A DNA stretch of 34,189 bases from Candidatus Hodarchaeota archaeon (lineage in GTDB: Archaea; Asgardarchaeota; Heimdallarchaeia; Hodarchaeales; Hodarchaeaceae): positions 1 through 34,189 of the forward strand of contig JAEOTQ010000091.1 of assembly GCA_016839785.1 (NCBI GenBank), in the 5' to 3' direction. The position numbers and the translations under genes were made by a program. A model generated the notes under the pieces. That model saw only the letters and a program-made list of their open reading frames with translations. It searched no databases and was not told where the DNA came from. Of this stretch, positions 26,838-33,564 are shown piece after piece (within the stretch, counting starts at the first letter, position 1; each line of letters begins with the position of its first letter).

Positions 26838-27080
26838 ATGCCTGCTGCTTTTGTATTAGTTAATGCCGAAATTGGATCAGAAGATGATGTATTAGATGAG
26901 TTAAAAAGTACCAAGGGTGTTGTTGGTGCTTGGATAGTTTACGGTGTTTACGACATCGTTGCTAAAATTGAAGCAGATTCTATGGAAAAACTCAAGGAAG
27001 TTATTACTACAAATATTCGTGGCCTTGAGAATGTTCGTTCAACCTTAACAATGATTGTTGTTGAAACGGCAAATCAATAG
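26838..27080 (+). CDS. Stand-alone Lrp/AsnC ligand-binding (RAM) domain protein
   Basis: AFVLVN, VYGVYDIVAKIEA, IR.LENVRSTLTMIV; 80 aa without HTH; GAGGTGA RBS. Confidence 0.92.
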   Translation: MPAAFVLVNAEIGSEDDVLDELKSTKGVVGAWIVYGVYDIVAKIEADSMEKLKEVITTNIRGLENVRSTLTMIVVETANQ

Positions 27081-27100
27081 CAAAAAGATCGGTAATAGAT

Positions 27101-27140
27101 GACTGAATAGACTTTTCATATTAAACCCGTCTGTTTAGTC
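27101..27140 (+). terminator. 12-bp stem-loop followed by T-rich tracts after the Lrp gene
   Basis: GACTGAATAGAC/GTCTGTTTAGTC with two G-U pairs; TCTTTTCTCTTTTTC at 27152-27166. Confidence 0.45.
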
Positions 27141-27264
27141 TCATTTGTCAATCTTTTCTCTTTTTCTATAGGAAAAGACATAACTCTTAATTTGTTTTTC
27201 TCACGAATCAAAAACATTATTAGTTAATTCAACTTAAATCAAATTAGCTAAGTTAGGTGAATTT

Positions 27265-27963
27265 ATGAAACAGATTCTGACCGATGTTTATTGGCTTCTA
27301 GGCCAAGGTTTTGACTGCAATGTATTCATTATTGATTCAAGGCAAGAATCAATTATGATAGATACAGGTGCCGGTAGTGTTCTTAATCAAAGATTTAGCA
27401 CCGCCTCATCAAATATTGAAACTCTTAAACGGGCGATAGATACCAAAAGAATTAAACACATCTTTCTCACACATGGTCATATTGATCATATTGGAGGAAT
27501 TTTATCTCTCCAATCTGAAGTAGATTGCATGATATCGGCATCATCTGAAGAAGCTTTACAGTTATCTTCTGGTAACAGTCCCTATCTTGATCCAATCATG
27601 AATTCAACCTGCTCTCCGCTTAAAATTACCAAAAAATATGATGAAGGAGACACAATCGCGGTGGGAGATTACAATTTCCAAGTATTTGAAACTCCAGGAC
27701 ATACCAAAGGATCTTTATCTCTTTATGAACCTGAAAAGAAAATACTCATTAGTGGTGATACTGTCTTCCCTCAAGGATCCTTTGGAAGAACGGATCTTCC
27801 CTCTGGTTCCAGTTCAGAGCTTTTAAAATCATTAGAACGTTTATCAAATCTTGAAATCCATGTCCTACTCCCAGGCCATATGCCACCAGTTATTTCACAA
27901 TCACCCCTTAATTCTGTCAAAGATTCATTTAGAAACGCGCAAATGATGCTTTCCTATTATTGA
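27265..27963 (+). CDS. Metallo-beta-lactamase fold hydrolase (glyoxalase II-like)
   Basis: IDTG, THGHIDHIGG, TPGHT, ISGDTVF, GRTDLP, PGH. Confidence 0.93.
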   Translation: MKQILTDVYWLLGQGFDCNVFIIDSRQESIMIDTGAGSVLNQRFSTASSNIETLKRAIDTKRIKHIFLTHGHIDHIGGILSLQSEVDCMISASSEEALQLSSGNSPYLDPIMNSTCSPLKITKKYDEGDTIAVGDYNFQVFETPGHTKGSLSLYEPEKKILISGDTVFPQGSFGRTDLPSGSSSELLKSLERLSNLEIHVLLPGHMPPVISQSPLNSVKDSFRNAQMMLSYY

Positions 27964-28446
27964 AATAATCTCATTGCAAGTATCCTCAATATTCCTATCA
28001 TCATTTTGAATTTCAAACATAATATCTTGAGGATAAAATTCTGAAAACTCATAGAACAAGATATTCATAATTTCAGCCTCTAAATTTGATTCAATTTTCT
28101 CATTTGAGTAATCTCGTGATTCTAGTCTTTTCCTCAGGATGGAGATCGAAGTGTGGAGAATAATAATATAATCAATTGGTAAACCTAGTAGAACCATTCC
28201 GCTAGAAATGCAAATTTTTTTGTTAGCTTTCAGTTTCTTGAATAGATTTTGAGTTAAAAGTTCATCATCAACAATTAACGTATCGCGATCGATGTCATAA
28301 CCAAGATACAACCCTTCTTCAATGATAAGATCGTTTATCTCTAGAAAATCTAAATCAAGATTGTAAGATAGATTTTTTGCAATAATTGTCTTACCTGTAC
28401 CTGGTGTACCGGTAATATATATCCGTAATACAGAACTATCACTCAT
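27925..28446 (-). CDS. AK6/Fap7-type adenylate kinase/ATPase
   Basis: IYITGTPGTGKT, LRKRLESRDYSNEKIESNLEAEI; 3' end overlaps the MBL gene by 39 nt. Confidence 0.88.
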   Translation of the reverse strand: MSDSSVLRIYITGTPGTGKTIIAKNLSYNLDLDFLEINDLIIEEGLYLGYDIDRDTLIVDDELLTQNLFKKLKANKKICISSGMVLLGLPIDYIIILHTSISILRKRLESRDYSNEKIESNLEAEIMNILFYEFSEFYPQDIMFEIQNDDRNIEDTCNEIISIIGKHHLRVSK

Positions 28447-28581
28447 GACAACCAACCATTGTCTATCTGTCGATTTAAGACTTAGTATATTCCCGAATCT
28501 TCTTTATGTAGGTTTAAATTATTATATTAATAAAGAGGTTGTAGAGAAGAGACGATTCTATCCCGCGAATGGTTATGTATT

Positions 28582-31062
28582 GTGAGCTCAATAATTTCAA
28601 TTGTAGCAGAAAAACCCTCTATCGCAAGAGCATTAGTTAGAGCATTCTCTATCGTTTATAAAATGAAATTTGAAAGCCGAAAAGGTCAAACGCGTTATAA
28701 TTATATCTTTGAAGCCTCATTAGAAGACCAAAAAGTAACTTTTACAATTGAGACGACAGAATACCGATTAAAAAAGGGGGATATATTACTAATCTCGAGT
28801 GTTACTGGGCATATTCTCAACTTTGACTATCCTCCACCCTTCGATAAAGATACAAATTGGCATAATTCTGATCCGATTGAAATGGTCGAAATTGAGCCAA
28901 TTGAAAAAGCGATTCATGAGAGTATGGTTGACCATGTTACTCATATTGGAGCGCTTTCTAATGTATTAATAGTAGCAACAGATTGGGATGGCCATGGAGA
29001 AGTGATAGGTCGAGAAATTGTAGAGGTAGCAAGCAGAGAAAATAAGAAAATTCGCCATGGTAGGATGAGATTTACAAGTACCAATCCCTTATCTCTTCAA
29101 CGTGCTTTTGAATCTCAAACTGGATTAAATTGGGACTGGATCCGTCAAGTCGATTCATTAAGAAAACAAGACCTAAGAATGGGATCTTCTATCACCCGAT
29201 TTTTAACTGTAGGCGTTCAAGATCGAGGTATTCATAATCAGATGATTTCTTATGGTCCATGTCAGACAAGTGTATTGTATCTAATTGCCAGTCGTTATAT
29301 TGAGAATAAAGCATTTAATCCGGAAGAATTCTGGAAGATATCTCTTAAGATTATTGTGAATGATAAACCTTTGTTCCTTGATTGGCATGGGAACCCATCT
29401 AGTGATGAAGAACATGTCGATAATATTCTAAAAAAACTTGAAAATGAAGAAAAGGCAGTCATCAGTGATTTTAATGAAGAAATAGGATCAATTCGAAGAC
29501 CACTTCCCCTTGATACTGATACTCTTGAAGCAGAGTGTTCCAATTTCTTTAAGGTAAGCCCGAAACAAATTTCTGACATTGCAGAACGCTTATACAATAA
29601 TGGATTTATTACTTACCCCAGAACTGAAAGTTCCTACTATCTTGAGAAAGATTTAACAAAATTAACGAGCATTTTTACTGATCATACTGAATTTGGAAAG
29701 ATTGCTCAAGAATGTATTAATCTTGGTGGTGTTACCAAGCCATCTAAGGGGCGTTTTACGAAGGATCATGAACCTATCAAGCCTGTCAAAGCAATAACCA
29801 AGAAAGATTTAGAAAAAACATTTACTAAGACTCCTTCAATAATTAACTTGTCGTGGGCAATATATTCGTACATTGTCTGGAGATTTCTAGCAACTGTCCA
29901 TATTGATGCAAAAACGCTGGATCAGTACATTATTTTATCCGTTGGTGAAGAAGAATTTAAGGGGAAAGGGAAATTGATAACAGAACTAGGTTTTCTCAAG
30001 TTTTATCAGTATCGAAATATTGTCTCTTCTGAACTACCAAAATTGGAAAAACACACTGAATTTCCTTTTGAAACGAATAAACATCTTGGTTATACTACTC
30101 CACCTCCATTATGGAACGAATCTATGCTGATTCGAAAAATGGCTGAATTAAATCTAGGTACTGATGCAACTCGTTCATCTCACATTGACACAGTTCAAAA
30201 ACGCAGATATACGACACCAACAGGCACTCAACGGGTTCTAGTTCCGACTCCACTTGGTTTGGCTTTATATAATGTACTTAATGCTCATGCACAAGATTTA
30301 ATCCTCCCTGAAATCCGAGGAAAAGTAGAAACATGGACACAACAGATAAGAGAACACAAAAAAACTGCTGAAGAAGTAGATAAGTTAGTTATTGATTTAA
30401 CTACGCAAGGCATCATGGCTATGAAATCTAACGAAGAAGATATCTTTTCAACCTTAACCACAAGTTTTAAAGATATGACTGGTGTAGGTAATATCATGGG
30501 GGTGTGTTCAGACTGTGAGGGAGAGTTAGTTCTATTCCAAGGTAAAAAAGGGGCACGGTTCTTAAAATGTATGAATCCTCTCTGTGAAGCAAGTTTCCCT
30601 CTTCCAAAAAAAGGAGAATTAACAAAATTAGAGGAAGAATATTGTAGGATATGTAAGTCCACACCTTTATTGGTTACAGTTAAGTATCATAATTGGATTA
30701 TGTGTCCAGTTTGTTGGACCCGAGAAGCGAGTAAAGATCGCCCTTGGTTTTGTAGTGATTGTAACCGTGAAGAATGCCCGTATTCGGGTTCTTGGAAAGC
30801 TAAATCTAGTGACGAGAATTTAGGTAAGTGTCCTGATTGTAATGGAGATTTGTTCCTTCAAATAAAGGAAGATAATGCACGTGTAGAATGCGTTTCATGC
30901 AATAGAATCTGGAAAACTCCCAAACTTCGTCCTAAGATGTCTATTACCCTAGGAAAGGCATGTACGCAATGTGGGAGAAAGACCCTTTCAGTTGTAAAAC
31001 AAGGAAAAAAGCCCTACAGATTATGCGTGTTTTGCTCGCTATTTTATTTTGATGATTATTAA
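28582..31062 (+). CDS. top3: Type IA topoisomerase, eukaryotic Top3 (TOP3B)-like, with multi-zinc-finger tail
   Basis: VAEKPSIA, SVTGH, DWD, SYGPCQT, catalytic ITYPRT (Y345), GTDAT, 19-Cys C-terminal region. Confidence 0.93.
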   Translation: MSSIISIVAEKPSIARALVRAFSIVYKMKFESRKGQTRYNYIFEASLEDQKVTFTIETTEYRLKKGDILLISSVTGHILNFDYPPPFDKDTNWHNSDPIEMVEIEPIEKAIHESMVDHVTHIGALSNVLIVATDWDGHGEVIGREIVEVASRENKKIRHGRMRFTSTNPLSLQRAFESQTGLNWDWIRQVDSLRKQDLRMGSSITRFLTVGVQDRGIHNQMISYGPCQTSVLYLIASRYIENKAFNPEEFWKISLKIIVNDKPLFLDWHGNPSSDEEHVDNILKKLENEEKAVISDFNEEIGSIRRPLPLDTDTLEAECSNFFKVSPKQISDIAERLYNNGFITYPRTESSYYLEKDLTKLTSIFTDHTEFGKIAQECINLGGVTKPSKGRFTKDHEPIKPVKAITKKDLEKTFTKTPSIINLSWAIYSYIVWRFLATVHIDAKTLDQYIILSVGEEEFKGKGKLITELGFLKFYQYRNIVSSELPKLEKHTEFPFETNKHLGYTTPPPLWNESMLIRKMAELNLGTDATRSSHIDTVQKRRYTTPTGTQRVLVPTPLGLALYNVLNAHAQDLILPEIRGKVETWTQQIREHKKTAEEVDKLVIDLTTQGIMAMKSNEEDIFSTLTTSFKDMTGVGNIMGVCSDCEGELVLFQGKKGARFLKCMNPLCEASFPLPKKGELTKLEEEYCRICKSTPLLVTVKYHNWIMCPVCWTREASKDRPWFCSDCNREECPYSGSWKAKSSDENLGKCPDCNGDLFLQIKEDNARVECVSCNRIWKTPKLRPKMSITLGKACTQCGRKTLSVVKQGKKPYRLCVFCSLFYFDDY

Positions 31063-31269
31063 GCAATTTTTGAAAACATAGGAATCCATAAGAATAATCC
31101 TCTTTTTGTCTCATTAACTTATTTCTTTCAGATCTCATCCAATCATGAAAATTACTAAACTTCCATTCAAGATGAATAGAATAATATAAAATACTCTGAG
31201 GAATAAATAAAATTCATCAACATTCAGTAGTTCGATTAGAACCTGAATGTCTTAAAAATATCTCTTTCA

Positions 31270-33564
31270 GTGGTTTATATGAGTTCTAATAAAAACTTTG
31301 GTAGAGATCCCGCCCCCTCTGCAATTCGCTACCTAGTACTATTGAGTGCACTGGTTTCAGGAGTAACAGCCCTTTCATTTCTTCCAAAATTGGCTGGTTC
31401 TAGTACTGCAGAATCAAACTTTTTTACCGGTGCTATTCCTATCTTCACTGGGTTTGCACTGGTTTCTGTTTTCGAATGGTTTTTATTAGGCCGTTCTCGA
31501 AAAATGAGAGGCCCTTATGGGTTCGCATTTGCAGTAGAGATATTAAAGACTGTCGGTCTAGGAATAGGAGCAAATGAATATGCTAGAAATGTGGAAGGAG
31601 CATCTACTGGAGATTTCTTGCTATTACAATTGACTACATACGCTATTCTCGTTATGCTTGCCCTTACTAAATTTCTGAGGACAAGAATCGAAGAGATTGC
31701 ACAAAGAGATATTAGTCGACATGTTCTGAATTTATTACCAACAATTCTTGTTATTCTTCTTTTTATGGGAACTTATGTTACCGAAATTGCGGGTCTTGGG
31801 ACACCTCGTCAACGGCGTAATTTTGATCCATATACGGACAAAATTATTGATTGGAATATGTTTAACACTCCCACATGGGATGCTACTTATATTCTGGAGA
31901 ATCTATTAGATCAATTTACCGCTGGATTATCTGCTCCTGATGTAATTTTATTTAATGTAACGAGTGATGATCCCACCGATTCGACAGAACCGCCTGCGTA
32001 TTGGCGAGTATCTAATCTAGATGATTACGTTTATACCGCCAAACCACCTTATACAACTGATTGGAATCCAAGCACATCAGTTAAAAGAGATACATTCACT
32101 TACTCTAGTGTTGTACCCTCAGATTCACGAACTGCCCGTTTCAACGTCGAAATGCCTTTAGACCATAATAGTACGTCGGTTGATGTTACTATTCATCCGA
32201 GTTTTCCTAATATGTTACCTACAACATGGAATGGTCCTTTGGGTGCATATGTGGCATCAAGTTCTTTCAATCTGTATGATAGTGATGAAGGTTCATTATC
32301 TCTTGTAAATCCGGTATCAGAACAGGCAAAAGAAGTGTTTCCCAATGCCGACCCTGAAGATCTCTTTGGAGTTTATGCTAATTTACAGGTTGCTGAAACA
32401 TCTACTGATGCAGGGCGTTTTGAGTATACTATGGATTATCAAGCTCCTGATATTCAGACAGCAGCTGCGTTCTCCCTTACCAGATCAGATGCGGCCTATC
32501 TAAGTTGTGGGATACACCCTGTTACTTGGGAATCGATAAAATCACGTTATCTCCAGATTCCAAGTACTGTTCCAGCGCCTTCTACAACTTATGCTGAATG
32601 GGCTCCTACAGTCTATGATACTGCTGTAACATGGAATGATTCTTTCCAGACAGTGTTTGGTCAATCATATGCTAATATGTTAAAATTTGGCAATCAGTCT
32701 CAATTTACATTCGATACTGAAATGTGGCTTGGTCAACAACTCGGAGTGATGGCCCATCCTGATGAATATGAGGATTATAATGAATGGTTCCTCAATAGAG
32801 GTAGTGGAGTATCTTTACACTTTGCTTCAGCATATACTATTATTAATCGTCTCCAAAATATTCCTTCCCGTGTAGTTATAGGCTATCTAGCGGGAAATGA
32901 CTCTTATATTTATGGAGGAAAACGTGCTGTCACTTCTCGATTTTTACACGCATGGTCAGAAGTCCTAGTTCCAATAGATCCAAATCCTCTATTACCAGGT
33001 GACGAACGGGTTGAATGGATGAGTTTTGATCCTCTTCTAAGCCAATTAGCAGAGCAATATGGTTTCGAACTTCCCACGGATATTATCCCTCCATCCAGCG
33101 CTGAACAGACAACTTTTATTCGTGCAGATTATGATCTAGAGACTAAAGGATTAGCACAAGCCTATATTGATCAAGGAATAGCTCAAGCATCAGGTGATTG
33201 GCTTTTTGGAAGATGCACGGTAAATAATAGTGTCTTAGGTGATGGCGCAAGTCTCCATGATGGAGATACCGTTATTGTATCTACACGCTTAATTTCGATT
33301 CCCTCGGCTGCCACGTGGTTACCTTACCAGAATGAAACAATTGATTTCTATATTGCCACTGATAGTGAAAATGGCACGGGTGATATTGAAACTGTTGGGA
33401 CCTGGATTGGTACAAAAGAAACTGATAATAATGGAATAGTAACGATTTTATTAACTATCGATATTGGAACACATGGGATAAGAACTGTCCGATTCTATGG
33501 CGTAGTGATTCTAGGTTCAGTTAGGAGACTTGCTATATCATTTGCATATGACATTACGTTCTAG
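31270..33564 (+). CDS. Membrane-anchored transglutaminase-like protein (TgpA-like layout)
   Basis: About five N-terminal hydrophobic segments, YWR motif, HFASA...RLQNIPSRVVIGY, HAWSEV, WMSFDP, beta-rich C-terminus. Start GTG 31270 or ATG 31279. Confidence 0.8.
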   Translation: MVYMSSNKNFGRDPAPSAIRYLVLLSALVSGVTALSFLPKLAGSSTAESNFFTGAIPIFTGFALVSVFEWFLLGRSRKMRGPYGFAFAVEILKTVGLGIGANEYARNVEGASTGDFLLLQLTTYAILVMLALTKFLRTRIEEIAQRDISRHVLNLLPTILVILLFMGTYVTEIAGLGTPRQRRNFDPYTDKIIDWNMFNTPTWDATYILENLLDQFTAGLSAPDVILFNVTSDDPTDSTEPPAYWRVSNLDDYVYTAKPPYTTDWNPSTSVKRDTFTYSSVVPSDSRTARFNVEMPLDHNSTSVDVTIHPSFPNMLPTTWNGPLGAYVASSSFNLYDSDEGSLSLVNPVSEQAKEVFPNADPEDLFGVYANLQVAETSTDAGRFEYTMDYQAPDIQTAAAFSLTRSDAAYLSCGIHPVTWESIKSRYLQIPSTVPAPSTTYAEWAPTVYDTAVTWNDSFQTVFGQSYANMLKFGNQSQFTFDTEMWLGQQLGVMAHPDEYEDYNEWFLNRGSGVSLHFASAYTIINRLQNIPSRVVIGYLAGNDSYIYGGKRAVTSRFLHAWSEVLVPIDPNPLLPGDERVEWMSFDPLLSQLAEQYGFELPTDIIPPSSAEQTTFIRADYDLETKGLAQAYIDQGIAQASGDWLFGRCTVNNSVLGDGASLHDGDTVIVSTRLISIPSAATWLPYQNETIDFYIATDSENGTGDIETVGTWIGTKETDNNGIVTILLTIDIGTHGIRTVRFYGVVILGSVRRLAISFAYDITF

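What the first reader, a model, noticed from the sequence alone, without database searches (positions are those of the whole stretch)
28582..31062. Archaeal topoisomerase with eukaryotic TOP3B signatures and zinc-finger tail
Seen: ISYGPCQT (29245-29268) where prokaryotic TopA/TopoIII usually have SAGRVQ, plus DLRMGSSITRF, DHEPIKP, GTDAT...HI and LILPEIRGKVE. As I recall them, TOP3B has SYGPCQTP, DLRIG.AFTRF, DHPPITP, GTDAS..HI and LVLPTIRSAVE. The tail (C..C, F.LP.KG, CPVCW...CSDCNREECPYS, LGKCPDC, CVSC, CTQC, CVFC) follows the order of the TOP3B Cys clusters but stops without an RGG tail. Inference: a possible pre-eukaryotic ancestor of Top3 alpha/beta, perhaps active on RNA.
Basis: partly seen in the sequence, partly recalled or inferred. 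Interest (0 to 1): 0.85.

Follow-up and report, generated by a model that had tools for sequence, protein, structure and literature searches.

The report
Asgard Topo III with TOP3B-like zinc tail
This is an intact second type IA DNA topoisomerase of a Hodarchaeales (Asgard) archaeon from the branch that also holds eukaryotic TOP3; its core motifs are ordinary for many archaea and its zinc tail is shared across Asgard, so it is a modest, largely published case.

Summary
The ORF (28582-31062, +, 826 aa) and every quoted motif are present. It is a type IA topoisomerase with a Toprim domain, a Topoisom_bac core and a 19-cysteine tail.

- **Closest solved structures:** human TOP3B and TOP3A, ahead of Sulfolobus Topo III.
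- **Core "eukaryotic" motifs are not special.** SYGPCQ and GTDAT are also the motifs of the ordinary, sole Topo III of Thermoproteota such as Pyrobaculum and Vulcanisaeta.
- **The tail is not specific either.** Its five-zinc layout is collinear with the TOP3B C-terminal domain. It is equally present in other Asgard type IA enzymes, including ones with the canonical SxGRVQ core.
- **Phylogeny.** In a careful ML tree, eukaryotic TOP3A+TOP3B group with Borr-, Wukong- and Njord-archaeal enzymes (92/91). Hodarchaeales form a separate clade in an unresolved polytomy. Hod+eukaryotes is not rejected (p-AU 0.196). Hod+TOP3B is rejected (p-AU 0.024).
- **Genome context.** The genome also encodes a canonical paralogue. 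No RMI1/TDRD3-type domain was found.
- **Literature.** A 2025 paper already relates eukaryotic Top3 to Heimdall-clan, Sif- and Wukongarchaeial Top3.

Verdict: observation confirmed, interpretation partly supported, modest interest. The one possibly new point is that the TOP3B tail layout has an Asgard origin.

The parts
28582..31062 (+). Whole gene: type IA DNA topoisomerase, Topo III-type paralogue, 826 aa, GTG start
   Evidence: ORF. Full-length orthologues of 826 aa at up to 90% identity and 100% coverage.
28600..29079 (+). Toprim domain (residues 7-166) with E10 and the D134-x-D136 metal-binding motif
   Evidence: Pfam PF01751, E 4.4e-07, above cut-off. VAEKPS at 8-13 and TDWDGHGE at 133-140. 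D134, D136, G139 and E140 are invariant in alignment A1.
29155..30378 (+). Topoisom_bac core (residues 192-599)
   Evidence: Pfam PF01131, E 3.7e-86. The genome search gives the same place. The AF2 model has pLDDT 89.8, and Foldseek gives TMt 0.90 to TOP3B 5gvc and 0.89 to TOP3A 4cgy.
29245..29268 (+). ISYGPCQT motif (residues 222-229), marker of the archaeo-eukaryotic Topo III branch
   Evidence: motif table. The motif is shared with Thermoproteota enzymes.
29614..29616 (+). Codon of the predicted catalytic tyrosine Y345 (ITYPRTES, residues 343-350)
   Evidence: Motif position. Y345, P346, R347, T348 and E349 are invariant in A1. It aligns to the YPRTE of human TOP3B. The catalytic role is inferred from the family.
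30505..30585 (+). Zinc ribbon 1 (C642, C645, C663, C668), followed by the FPLPKKG motif
   Evidence: Weak Pfam Zn_ribbon_Top1 match at 641-676, E 0.0011, below cut-off. Cys spacing. Cys columns are invariant or nearly so in A1.
30643..30777 (+). Seven-cysteine module (C688, C691, C708, C711, C724, C727, C732: C2C-16-CPVCW-12-C2C4C), counterpart of the two adjacent zinc sites of the TOP3B C-terminal domain
   Evidence: - Spacing.
- Aligned to human TOP3B and to plant TOP3B.
- The TOP3B C-terminal domain is described in PMC11743793.
- The module falls in a gap of the alignment to six TopA-type tails from Methanoplasma, haloarchaea, Actinomycetota and unnamed relatives.
- It is present in other Asgard enzymes.
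30829..30900 (+). Zinc ribbon 4 (C750, C753, C770, C773)
30961..31035 (+). Zinc ribbon 5 (C794, C797, C815, C818). The protein ends 8 residues later without an RGG tail.

Best explanation
**What it is.** The gene encodes an intact, vertically inherited type IA topoisomerase of the archaeo-eukaryotic Topo III branch. It is the second type IA enzyme of a Hodarchaeales genome that also keeps a canonical archaeal paralogue.

**Inferred mechanism, from the family.**
- The Toprim acidic residues (E10, D134, D136) bind Mg2+.
- Y345 attacks single-stranded nucleic acid and forms a 5'-phosphotyrosyl link.
- A second strand passes through the protein gate of the toroidal core, and the break is resealed.
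- The 190-residue tail binds five zinc ions through 19 Cys. By analogy with the TOP3B C-terminal domain, it holds nucleic acid next to the cleavage site.

**Likely division of labour (inference).** The canonical paralogue would relax negative supercoils. This enzyme would unlink precatenanes, hemicatenanes, recombination intermediates or R-loops.

**Evolution.** It is one of several Asgard and TACK lineages of the branch from which eukaryotic TOP3 arose. It predates, or lies outside, the TOP3A/TOP3B split. Its tail is an Asgard-wide layout that TOP3B has kept.
For: **Family and fold**
- Pfam Toprim and Topoisom_bac are above cut-off.
- Catalytic and metal-binding residues are invariant in 31 aligned sequences.
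- AF2 gives pLDDT 89.8 and pTM 0.80.
- Foldseek hits: TOP3B 9cah E 6e-50; 5gvc TMt 0.90; TOP3A 4cgy TMt 0.89; Sulfolobus Topo III TMt 0.80.

**Branch**
- Careful ML tree of 71 rows x 590 columns. The clade of Hod, Thermoproteota, Nitrososphaeria-like, other Asgard and eukaryotic sequences has support 98/96. Hod is 100/100. Eukaryotic TOP3A+TOP3B is 100/97.

**Second paralogue**
- The genome has two PF01131 matches.
- The other is a 686-aa protein with SVGRVQL and GTKSSR motifs in a separate Asgard clade. It is 25% identical to this one.

**Vertical inheritance**
- An orthologue was found in 20 of 21 other genomes of the genus and 2 of 2 others of the order.
- The gene order AsnC - MBL - AAA_18 - TOP3 - transglutaminase-like is kept, wholly or in the part the contig holds, in the 22 Hodarchaeales loci.

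**Tail**
- End-to-end BLASTP with plant TOP3B covers query 5-818 at E 2e-67.
- hhalign of the Hod tail against the TOP3B tail gives prob 98.1, E 6.4e-14, 179 columns.
- The published TOP3B C-terminal domain has a C4 finger, two adjacent Zn sites and two further C4 fingers (PMC11743793).
Against: - There is no biochemical evidence. Activity, substrate and the role of the tail are inferred.
- All NCBIfam equivalogs score below their cut-offs.
- Pfam's TOP3B-specific ribbon PF23546 is not detected at E <= 0.1, although it is found in the eukaryotic TOP3B tested.
- Relations among the four sub-clades are unresolved.
- Eukaryotic TOP3A is represented only by 5 fungal sequences.
- No RMI1/TDRD3-type OB protein was found, and no RecQ zinc-binding domain in the genome, which is 84.5% complete. 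A eukaryote-like dissolvasome is therefore not indicated.
Confidence: 0.85

Rival explanations
1. The Hodarchaeales enzyme is the closest living relative (sister) of eukaryotic TOP3, inherited vertically by the eukaryotic stem from a Hodarchaeales-like ancestor before the TOP3A/TOP3B duplication.
For: - The AU test does not reject a Hod+eukaryote clade (delta lnL 12.36, p-AU 0.196).
- The protein has the full five-zinc tail, end-to-end collinear with TOP3B.
- Its core motifs mix TOP3A and TOP3B states, as expected of a pre-duplication form.
- The best PDB sequence hits are TOP3B (1.6e-64) and TOP3A (7.7e-58).
Against: - The best tree puts Borrarchaeum-, Wukongarchaeota- and Njordarchaeales-labelled enzymes with eukaryotes (92/91), not Hodarchaeales.
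- The Hod stem is long (0.86).
- The tail layout is not specific to this clade.
- PMC12680538 treats Top3 as a gene with probable HGT around eukaryogenesis (passages).
Confidence: 0.2
2. The gene reached Hodarchaeales by horizontal transfer, either from another archaeal lineage (TACK or another Asgard class) or from proto-eukaryotes, before the order diversified. It is not an ancient paralogue kept by descent.
For: - Within the class, only the order has this type. No same-class genome outside the order matched better than about 2e-47, and the two best-scoring ones that I read (L128, L129) are SxGRVQ type.
- The distribution in the phylum is patchy: found in f1, f2, f28, f33, f32 and as a second copy in f24.
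- PMC12680538 postulates HGT for the polyphyletic multicopy Top3 of Asgard.
- PMC12395588 argues for gene flow between proto-eukaryotes and Heimdallarchaeia in general. In the passages I read it does not mention Top3.
Against: - The Hod clade is not nested in Thermoproteota, in the other Asgard group or in eukaryotes; all four are separate, fully supported clades.
- Synteny and presence are stable across the order.
- Window GC is even at 0.34-0.41 with no local anomaly at the gene.
- A patchy distribution fits differential loss equally well.
Confidence: 0.3
3. It is an RNA topoisomerase that works on mRNA or R-loops as TOP3B does.
For: - The tail is collinear with the TOP3B C-terminal domain.
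- RNA strand passage has been reported for E. coli Topo III (passage in PMC11894792).
- RNA topoisomerase activity in type IA enzymes of all domains is my recollection (Ahmad et al. 2016); I did not check that paper here.
Against: - There is no RGG or arginine-rich tail.
- No TDRD3-type partner was found.
- No neighbouring RNA-metabolism gene is tied to it.
- The same tail sits on other Asgard type IA enzymes with a canonical core.
- If RNA activity is general in the family, it is not a distinguishing property.
Confidence: 0.15

Closest known systems
Human/eukaryotic TOP3B (PDB 9cah, 5gvc; Pfam PF01131 + PF23546)
   Same: - Best sequence hit (E 1.6e-64, aligned 7-735) and best fold hit (E 6e-50; 5gvc TMt 0.90).
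- Shares SYGPCQT, DHxPIxP, YPRTES and the IRxxVE helix.
- The five-zinc tail is in the same order, including the C2C4C cluster and the PLPxxG motif.
   Different: - Has TDWD, DLRMG and GTDAT where TOP3B has LDCD, DLK[IV]G and GTDAS.
- PF23546 is not detected.
- Site 2 has four Cys where TOP3B has three Cys plus Asp.
- No arginine-rich tail.
- No TDRD3-like domain in the order (no positive control).
- A clade with TOP3B is rejected.
Eukaryotic TOP3A (PDB 4cgy; fungal Top3)
   Same: - The core is as similar as to TOP3B: BLASTP 28% identity, E 1e-70 to a fungal TOP3A; Foldseek TMt 0.89.
- Shares TDxD, DLRxG and GTDAT.
   Different: - TOP3A has AHPPIHP, YPRTET and CQF.
- Fungal tails carry GRF fingers with no likeness to this tail (hhalign prob 0.1).
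- No RMI1 domain was found.
Ordinary Topo III of Thermoproteota (Pyrobaculum, Vulcanisaeta, Caldivirga, Thermofilum, Methanomethylicia)
   Same: - Same branch (98/96) and the same SYGPCQ / YPRTE / GTDAT motifs.
- 27-33% identity, E 1e-58 to 1e-80.
   Different: - These enzymes are 560-690 aa with 1-8 Cys and no zinc tail.
- In the three genomes checked they are the sole Topo III. Here the gene is a second paralogue.
Top3 of Borrarchaeum/Sif-type, Wukongarchaeota and Njordarchaeales (Asgard), as in PMC12680538 Extended Data Fig. 4f legend
   Same: - Same branch, with S[FWI]GP[CV]Q and GTDAT motifs.
- The Borr type (858-914 aa) has a related multi-zinc tail (hhalign prob 97.7, E 1.4e-12).
   Different: - They group with eukaryotes (92/91) while Hodarchaeales do not.
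- About 32% identity.
- They carry AHPPIHP and YPRTET like TOP3A.
Canonical Asgard/archaeal type IA (TopA-like, SxGRVQ core), including the paralogue on contig C54 of this genome
   Same: - Same fold family.
- Several members (f24, f11, f8, f10, f20) carry the same tail layout (hhalign prob 99.7, E 2.5e-26).
   Different: - The core has SxGRVQ, GTK[SA][ST]R and T in place of R in the IRxxVE helix.
- Separate clades in the tree.
- 25% identity to this protein.
- The own-genome paralogue has a single C4 ribbon.

Membership tests
Type IA DNA topoisomerase | Toprim domain with conserved Glu and DxD, plus the Topoisom_bac core, above Pfam cut-offs | tested here: met
   PF01751 scores 30.4 bits (cut-off 23.1) and PF01131 scores 290.1 bits (cut-off 35.1). 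E10, D134 and D136 are present.
Type IA DNA topoisomerase | Catalytic tyrosine in the YPRT[ED] motif | tested here: met
   ITYPRTES at 343-350. Y345 and R347 are invariant in 31 sequences and align to human TOP3B.
Type IA DNA topoisomerase | Toroidal four-domain fold | tested here: met
   AF2 pLDDT 89.8. Foldseek E <= 1e-25 to TOP3B, TOP3A, Sulfolobus Topo III, E. coli Topo I and III, and reverse gyrase.
Type IA DNA topoisomerase | Mg-dependent single-strand cleavage and strand passage | not testable with these tools
   Needs an enzyme assay.
Archaeo-eukaryotic Topo III branch (SYGPCQ type) | S[YFW]G[PS]CQ and GTDA[TS] motifs, and Arg in the L.P.IR..VE helix | tested here: met
   Motif table over 75 sequences.
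Archaeo-eukaryotic Topo III branch (SYGPCQ type) | Placement inside the clade in an ML tree | tested here: met
   53-row clade with support 98/96; Hod sub-clade 100/100.
Eukaryotic TOP3B | Pfam PF23546 Zn_ribbon_TOP3B directly after the core | tested here: not met
   No hit at E <= 0.1 in P0001 and none at E <= 0.01 in three Hodarchaeales-type relatives. It is found in the 3 eukaryotic TOP3B-type proteins scanned.
Eukaryotic TOP3B | Membership of the TOP3B clade | tested here: not met
   TOP3B is 100/100 without Hod. A Hod+TOP3B clade is rejected, delta lnL 36.5, p-AU 0.024.
Eukaryotic TOP3B | C-terminal domain with five zinc sites in the order C4 / two adjacent sites / C4 / C4 | tested here: met
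   with the description in PMC11743793. The layout is not exclusive to TOP3B.
Eukaryotic TOP3B | Arginine-rich (RGG) C-terminus | tested here: not met
   The protein ends FYFDDY.
Eukaryotic TOP3B | TDRD3 partner (DUF1767/OB, Pfam RMI1_N_C) | tested here: inconclusive
   PF08585 was found in 0 of 24 genomes of the order, but no positive control was possible because the control genomes are prokaryotes.
Eukaryotic TOP3A | GRF zinc fingers; AHPPIHP and CQF core motifs; RMI1 partner | tested here: not met
   No PF06839 hit. The protein has DHEPIKP and CQT. The tail is unlike fungal TOP3A tails. The test for RMI1 is inconclusive.
Canonical archaeal topoisomerase I (TIGR01057 topA_arch, PRK07220) | Score above the curated NCBIfam cut-off | tested here: not met
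   243 bits against a cut-off of 458; 336 bits against 635.
Reverse gyrase | N-terminal SF2 helicase domain fused to the topoisomerase | tested here: not met
   No helicase domain in the Pfam scan. TIGR01054 scores 106 bits against a cut-off of 472.

The most novel reading that the evidence does not exclude
The five-zinc C-terminal domain of eukaryotic TOP3B was not invented in eukaryotes. It was inherited from an Asgard-wide type IA tail: a C4 ribbon, then a CxxC...CPxCW...CxxCxxxxC double site, then two more C4 ribbons. The Hodarchaeales enzyme keeps the architecture of the pre-duplication TOP3 (SYGPCQ core plus full tail). TOP3A replaced the tail and TOP3B added the RGG box. If so, this protein is a tractable prokaryotic model for what the TOP3B tail does on DNA, R-loops or RNA.
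Probability: 0.5. Interest if true: 0.45.

Novelty: already known. Interest (0 to 1): 0.3.

Why it matters
It bears on where the eukaryotic TOP3 enzymes came from.

- The core link between archaeal and eukaryotic Topo III is old knowledge (PMC2647321, passages). The Asgard link is in a 2025 paper (PMC12680538, passages and one figure legend). The finding therefore does not open a new question.
  - The "eukaryotic" core motifs are the normal state of Thermoproteota Topo III.
  - Hodarchaeales are not the best-supported sister of eukaryotic TOP3.
  - The lead: the TOP3B tail layout is already present across Asgard type IA enzymes, which would date that domain before eukaryogenesis. I found no mention of this in the passages I read. 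The paper's Supplementary Text, which I could not open, may cover it.

Tried and rejected
**Readings tested and dropped**
- **Specifically TOP3B-like.** Rejected by the AU test, by the mixed motifs and by the absence of PF23546.
- **Core motifs unique to Asgard and eukaryotes.** Rejected by the genome scan.
- **Tail unique to this clade and TOP3B.** Rejected. SxGRVQ-core Asgard enzymes share it. Generic Zn_ribbon_Top1 arrays of archaeal and actinobacterial TopA also align (prob 99.2), though with a gap over the seven-Cys module. The Atlas feature search with orthologue P0016, residues 630-825, returned mostly bacterial Zn_ribbon_Top1 clusters.
- **Partner hunt.** PF08585 was absent from the own genome and from 24 genomes of the order, with no positive control. 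RecQ_Zn_bind was absent from the own genome.

**Trees**
- A first quick tree (75 rows) gave the same four-way polytomy.
- For the second tree I left out:
  - the long or odd rows P0100, P0118, P0120, P0121 and P0110;
  - the helicase fusions P0111 and P0113;
  - redundant rows.
- I added Thermoproteota and further Asgard rows.

**Limits**
- Only 5 fungal TOP3A were available. The third homologue search returned basidiomycetes only.
- hhalign E-values are single-pair values on small alignments.
- Supplements of papers were not opened.
Full report
**Observation**

The window holds one ORF at 28582..31062 on the + strand, with a GTG start and 826 aa.
- ISYGPCQT is at residues 222-229. By arithmetic from the ORF start this is nt 29245-29268, as stated.
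- DLRMGSSITRF is at 197-207, DHEPIKP at 395-401, LGTDATRSSHI at 525-535 and LILPEIRGKVE at 573-583.
- The last 190 residues carry 19 Cys spaced C2C-17-C4C-19-C2C-16-C2C-12-C2C4C-17-C2C-16-C2C-20-C2C-17-C2C.
- The protein ends FYFDDY with no RGG run.

The only difference is that human TOP3B reads SFGPCQT.

**What it is**

Pfam finds Toprim (residues 7-166) and Topoisom_bac (192-599, E 3.7e-86). It also finds a weak, sub-threshold Zn_ribbon_Top1 at 641-676. All NCBIfam archaeal and bacterial topoisomerase equivalogs score far below their cut-offs.

The predicted catalytic residues are E10, D134, D136, Y345 and R347. All are conserved in a 31-sequence alignment (E10 nearly invariant, the rest invariant). 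The alignment includes five eukaryotic TOP3B. So are most tail cysteines.

The AlphaFold2 model is confident, with pLDDT 89.8 and pTM 0.80. Its best Foldseek matches in the PDB are:
- human TOP3B: 9cah E 6e-50; 5gvc TMt 0.90, rmsd 3.2;
- human TOP3A: 4cgy E 3e-44, TMt 0.89;
- Sulfolobus Topo III: E 1.5e-39, TMt 0.80;
- bacterial enzymes, more distantly.

By sequence the order is the same: TOP3B 1.6e-64, TOP3A 7.7e-58, Sulfolobus Topo III 1.1e-33, E. coli Topo I about 1e-22.

**Organism and paralogy**

Close homologues at 60-90% identity, all 822-835 aa, carry source labels such as Hodarchaeales, Hodarchaeota and Heimdallarchaeota. A few are labelled Thor-, Hermod- or Promethearchaeota.

The genome is 4.04 Mb in 248 contigs and 84.5% complete. 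It has two PF01131 matches.
- The second is on contig C54. It is a 686-aa protein with one Zn_ribbon_Top1 and the canonical motifs SVGRVQL and GTKSSR.
- It is 25% identical to the protein under study.
- Its relatives are other Asgard enzymes, then Methanoplasma, haloarchaeal and actinobacterial Topo I.

**Distribution**

With P0001 as query over 400 genomes of the phylum:
- An orthologue (E 0 to 1e-296) was found in 20 of 21 other genomes of the genus. The missing one is 86% complete.
- Relatives at 44-45% identity were found in 2 of 2 other genomes of the order.
- No genome of the other families of the class matched better than about 2e-47. The two of those best matches that I read are SxGRVQ type (L128, L129).

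Elsewhere in the phylum, the SYGPCQ-like type turned up in the following:

| Family code | Source label | Size |
|---|---|---|
| f28 | Borrarchaeum / Promethearchaeota | 858-914 aa |
| f33 | Wukongarchaeota | 717-722 aa |
| f32 | none | 726 aa |
| f24 (second, tail-less copy) | Njordarchaeales | 638 aa |

The gene order AsnC-type regulator, MBL-fold hydrolase, AAA_18 kinase-like protein (opposite strand), this gene, then a transglutaminase-like membrane protein is kept in the 22 Hodarchaeales loci, as far as each contig reaches. Window GC is even. This looks like stable vertical descent within the order.

**The core motifs are not eukaryote- or Asgard-specific**

The scan of one genome for each of 185,579 species used the exact peptide patterns [IVL]SYGPCQ[TS][SP][VT] and ITYPRTES[ST].
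- It found 149 stretches, 143 of them confirmed relatives. The best 80 were kept, as 79 loci.
- 22 loci are Hodarchaeales-type.
- The other 57 are 27-31% identical. They are labelled Caldivirga, Vulcanisaeta, Pyrobaculum, Thermoproteus, Thermofilum, Thermocladium, Infirmifilum, Methanomethylicia, Nezhaarchaeales, Culexmicrobium and similar. One is labelled a Dehalococcoidia MAG.
- All 57 of 57 read [LI]SYGPCQ[TS]. They are 563-698 aa with 2-8 Cys, so they have no zinc tail.

In Pyrobaculum oguniense, Vulcanisaeta distributa and a Methanomethylicia MAG, this protein and reverse gyrase are the only type IA genes. In those genomes the SYGPCQ type is therefore simply the ordinary Topo III.

In a sample of 121 Thermoproteota genomes, 103 matched P0001 at E <= 1e-15. 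The loci I read fall into four motif classes:
- SYGPCQ/GTDAT;
- a shorter SWGSCQ/GTDATR class. Protein relatives with the same motifs (P0077 and others) are labelled Nitrososphaerota or Aigarchaeota;
- SAGRVQS;
- SIGRVQG/GTKATRA.

**Phylogeny**

The careful ML tree used the core only: 71 rows (70 distinct) x 590 columns, LG+C20+F+G4 by PMSF, with UFBoot/SH-aLRT support.
- A 53-row SYGPCQ-type clade has support 98/96.
- Its sister, within a 59-row clade supported at 99/97, is an Asgard SxGRVQ clade (100/99) that includes this genome's other paralogue.
- Inside the SYGPCQ clade there are four groups whose mutual order is unresolved:
  - the SWGSCQ group (100/100);
  - Thermoproteota (100/100);
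  - Hodarchaeales (100/100, stem length 0.86);
  - a group at 92/91. It holds the Njord sequence, the Borr+Wukong+f32 clade (100/99) and eukaryotes.
- Eukaryotic TOP3A (5 fungal rows, 100/100) and TOP3B (11 rows, 100/100) form one clade (100/97).

Two AU tests followed.
- Hod+eukaryotes held together costs 12.36 lnL, p-AU 0.196, so it is not rejected.
- Hod+TOP3B without TOP3A costs 36.48 lnL, p-AU 0.024, so it is rejected.

The motif states agree with a position outside the A/B split. The protein has TDxD, DLRxG and GTDAT like TOP3A. It has DHxPI and YPRTES like TOP3B. BLASTP gives 28% identity to a fungal TOP3A over the core and 25% to a plant TOP3B end to end.

Caveats:
- TOP3A is fungal only.
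- Several rows have deviant composition.
- I removed the long rows P0100, P0118, P0120, P0121 and P0110, and the helicase fusions P0111 and P0113, after the first quick tree.

**The tail**

The alignment with human TOP3B runs to the end of the solved chain, residue 718. The alignment with a plant TOP3B runs to query residue 818.

| Profile-profile comparison of tails (hhalign) | Prob | E-value | Note |
|---|---|---|---|
| Hod vs TOP3B | 98.1 | 6.4e-14 | 179 collinear columns |
| Hod vs Borr-type | 97.7 | 1.4e-12 | |
| Hod vs fungal TOP3A (GRF fingers) | 0.1 | 0.47 | no likeness |
| Hod vs TopA-type tails (Methanoplasma, haloarchaeal, actinobacterial) | 99.2 | 1.4e-19 | gap across the CPxCW...CxxCxxxxC module |
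| Hod vs SxGRVQ-core Asgard tails | 99.7 | 2.5e-26 | |
| TOP3B vs SxGRVQ-core Asgard tails | 98.0 | 2e-13 | as good as TOP3B vs Hod |

The published cryo-EM description of TOP3B lists a C4 finger, two adjacent zinc sites (3 Cys + Asp, and 3 Cys), two further predicted C4 fingers and an arginine-rich tail (PMC11743793, passages). The 4+4+3+4+4 cysteines here fit that layout.

The decisive control is that SxGRVQ-core enzymes of other Asgard families carry the same layout, including CPVCW...CxxCxxxxC. These are f24, f11, f8, f10 and f20. For f24 the only name I have comes from its second, tail-less copy, which is labelled Njordarchaeales. f8 is labelled Asgardarchaeum or Odinarchaeota.

The tail is therefore an Asgard-wide type IA tail that TOP3B shares. 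It is not a feature that singles out this protein. A language-model feature search with orthologue P0016, residues 630-825, returned mainly bacterial Zn_ribbon_Top1 clusters. That fits a generic origin of the ribbons.

**Partners and RNA**
- RMI1_N_C (PF08585, the OB domain family of RMI1 and TDRD3) was not found in this genome at E <= 1. It was found in 0 of 24 genomes of the order at E <= 0.01. No positive control was possible.
- RecQ_Zn_bind was not found in this genome, although it rang in 8 of 14 control genomes.
- Nothing in sequence or context speaks for RNA work. The RGG box is absent.

**Literature**

I read only passages returned by 'find' and one figure legend. I read no figures and no supplements.
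- PMC12680538 (Nat Ecol Evol 2025):
  - It lists Top3 among genes with unique expansions in Asgard archaea and with probable HGT around eukaryogenesis.
  - Its Extended Data Fig. 4f legend says one eukaryotic Top3 clade is related to archaeal Top3 of the Heimdall clan, Sifarchaeia and Wukongarchaeia.
  - The word 'zinc' occurs there only for PolB.
- PMC2647321 (2009) already states that archaeal Topo IA falls into several subgroups. It also states that archaeal and eukaryal Topo III are related.
- PMC12395588, PMC11894792, PMC8185306 and the bioRxiv preprint 10.1101/2025.02.13.637844 gave nothing specific on this protein in the passages read.
- Searches made.
- That no paper describes the Asgard origin of the TOP3B tail rests only on these searches and passages. 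The Supplementary Text of PMC12680538 may cover it.

**Verdict**

The protein is a real, conserved, very probably active Topo III-type paralogue of Hodarchaeales. It lies on the branch that gave rise to eukaryotic TOP3, outside the TOP3A/TOP3B split.

The reading as a special TOP3B-like ancestor is only partly supported.
- The core signatures are ordinary for TACK Topo III.
- The tail is Asgard-wide.
- Other Asgard lineages sit closer to eukaryotes in the best tree.
- The general point is published.

The remaining lead is the pre-eukaryotic origin of the TOP3B tail layout.

Tools that did not run: the search of protein representatives and the search of earlier findings.

Noticed in passing
proteins P0111 (1412 aa) and P0113 (1115 aa), metagenome sources: These are helicase-topoisomerase fusions (precomputed Pfam DEAD, Helicase_C and ResIII plus Toprim and Topoisom_bac). 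Their topoisomerase part carries TOP3B-type motifs (LDCD, ISYGPCQT, DHPPITP). In the quick tree they fell inside the eukaryotic TOP3B group. The architecture is reverse-gyrase-like but built on a TOP3B-type core. Their origin is unknown.
   Followed up: no
L056 (contig labelled uncultured Dehalococcoidia bacterium, 6141 bases): It is the only bacterial-labelled locus among the 79 from the genome scan. It encodes a 624-aa LSYGPCQS-type Topo III like those of Thermoproteota. It is either a misbinned archaeal contig or a transfer.
   Followed up: no
window 26838-33564 and loci L033-L054: The gene order AsnC-type ligand-binding protein, MBL-fold hydrolase, AAA_18 kinase-like protein (176 aa, opposite strand, overlapping the MBL gene's 3' end), topoisomerase, then a 764-aa transglutaminase-like membrane protein is conserved across Hodarchaeales. 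No functional link to the topoisomerase is evident.
   Followed up: partly
L112, L113, L030 versus L124 (family f24; L124 is labelled Njordarchaeales): These genomes pair the parts the other way round. An SxGRVQ-core enzyme (814-863 aa) carries the long multi-zinc tail with CPVCW...CxxCxxxxxC. A tail-less 638-aa enzyme has the SIGPCQT core.
   Followed up: partly
The genome search, family f12 (genera g24, g25): 0 of 19 genomes of this Asgard family matched P0001 at E <= 1e-20, while 352 of the 400 genomes searched did. Either their type IA enzyme is very divergent or it is missing.
   Followed up: no
G494, G422, G454 (Thermoproteota sample): The type IA matches in these genomes carry 1-2 in-frame stop codons (TGA; in G454 one TGA and one TAA). 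I did not look at them. They could be pseudogenes, assembly errors or recoding.
   Followed up: no
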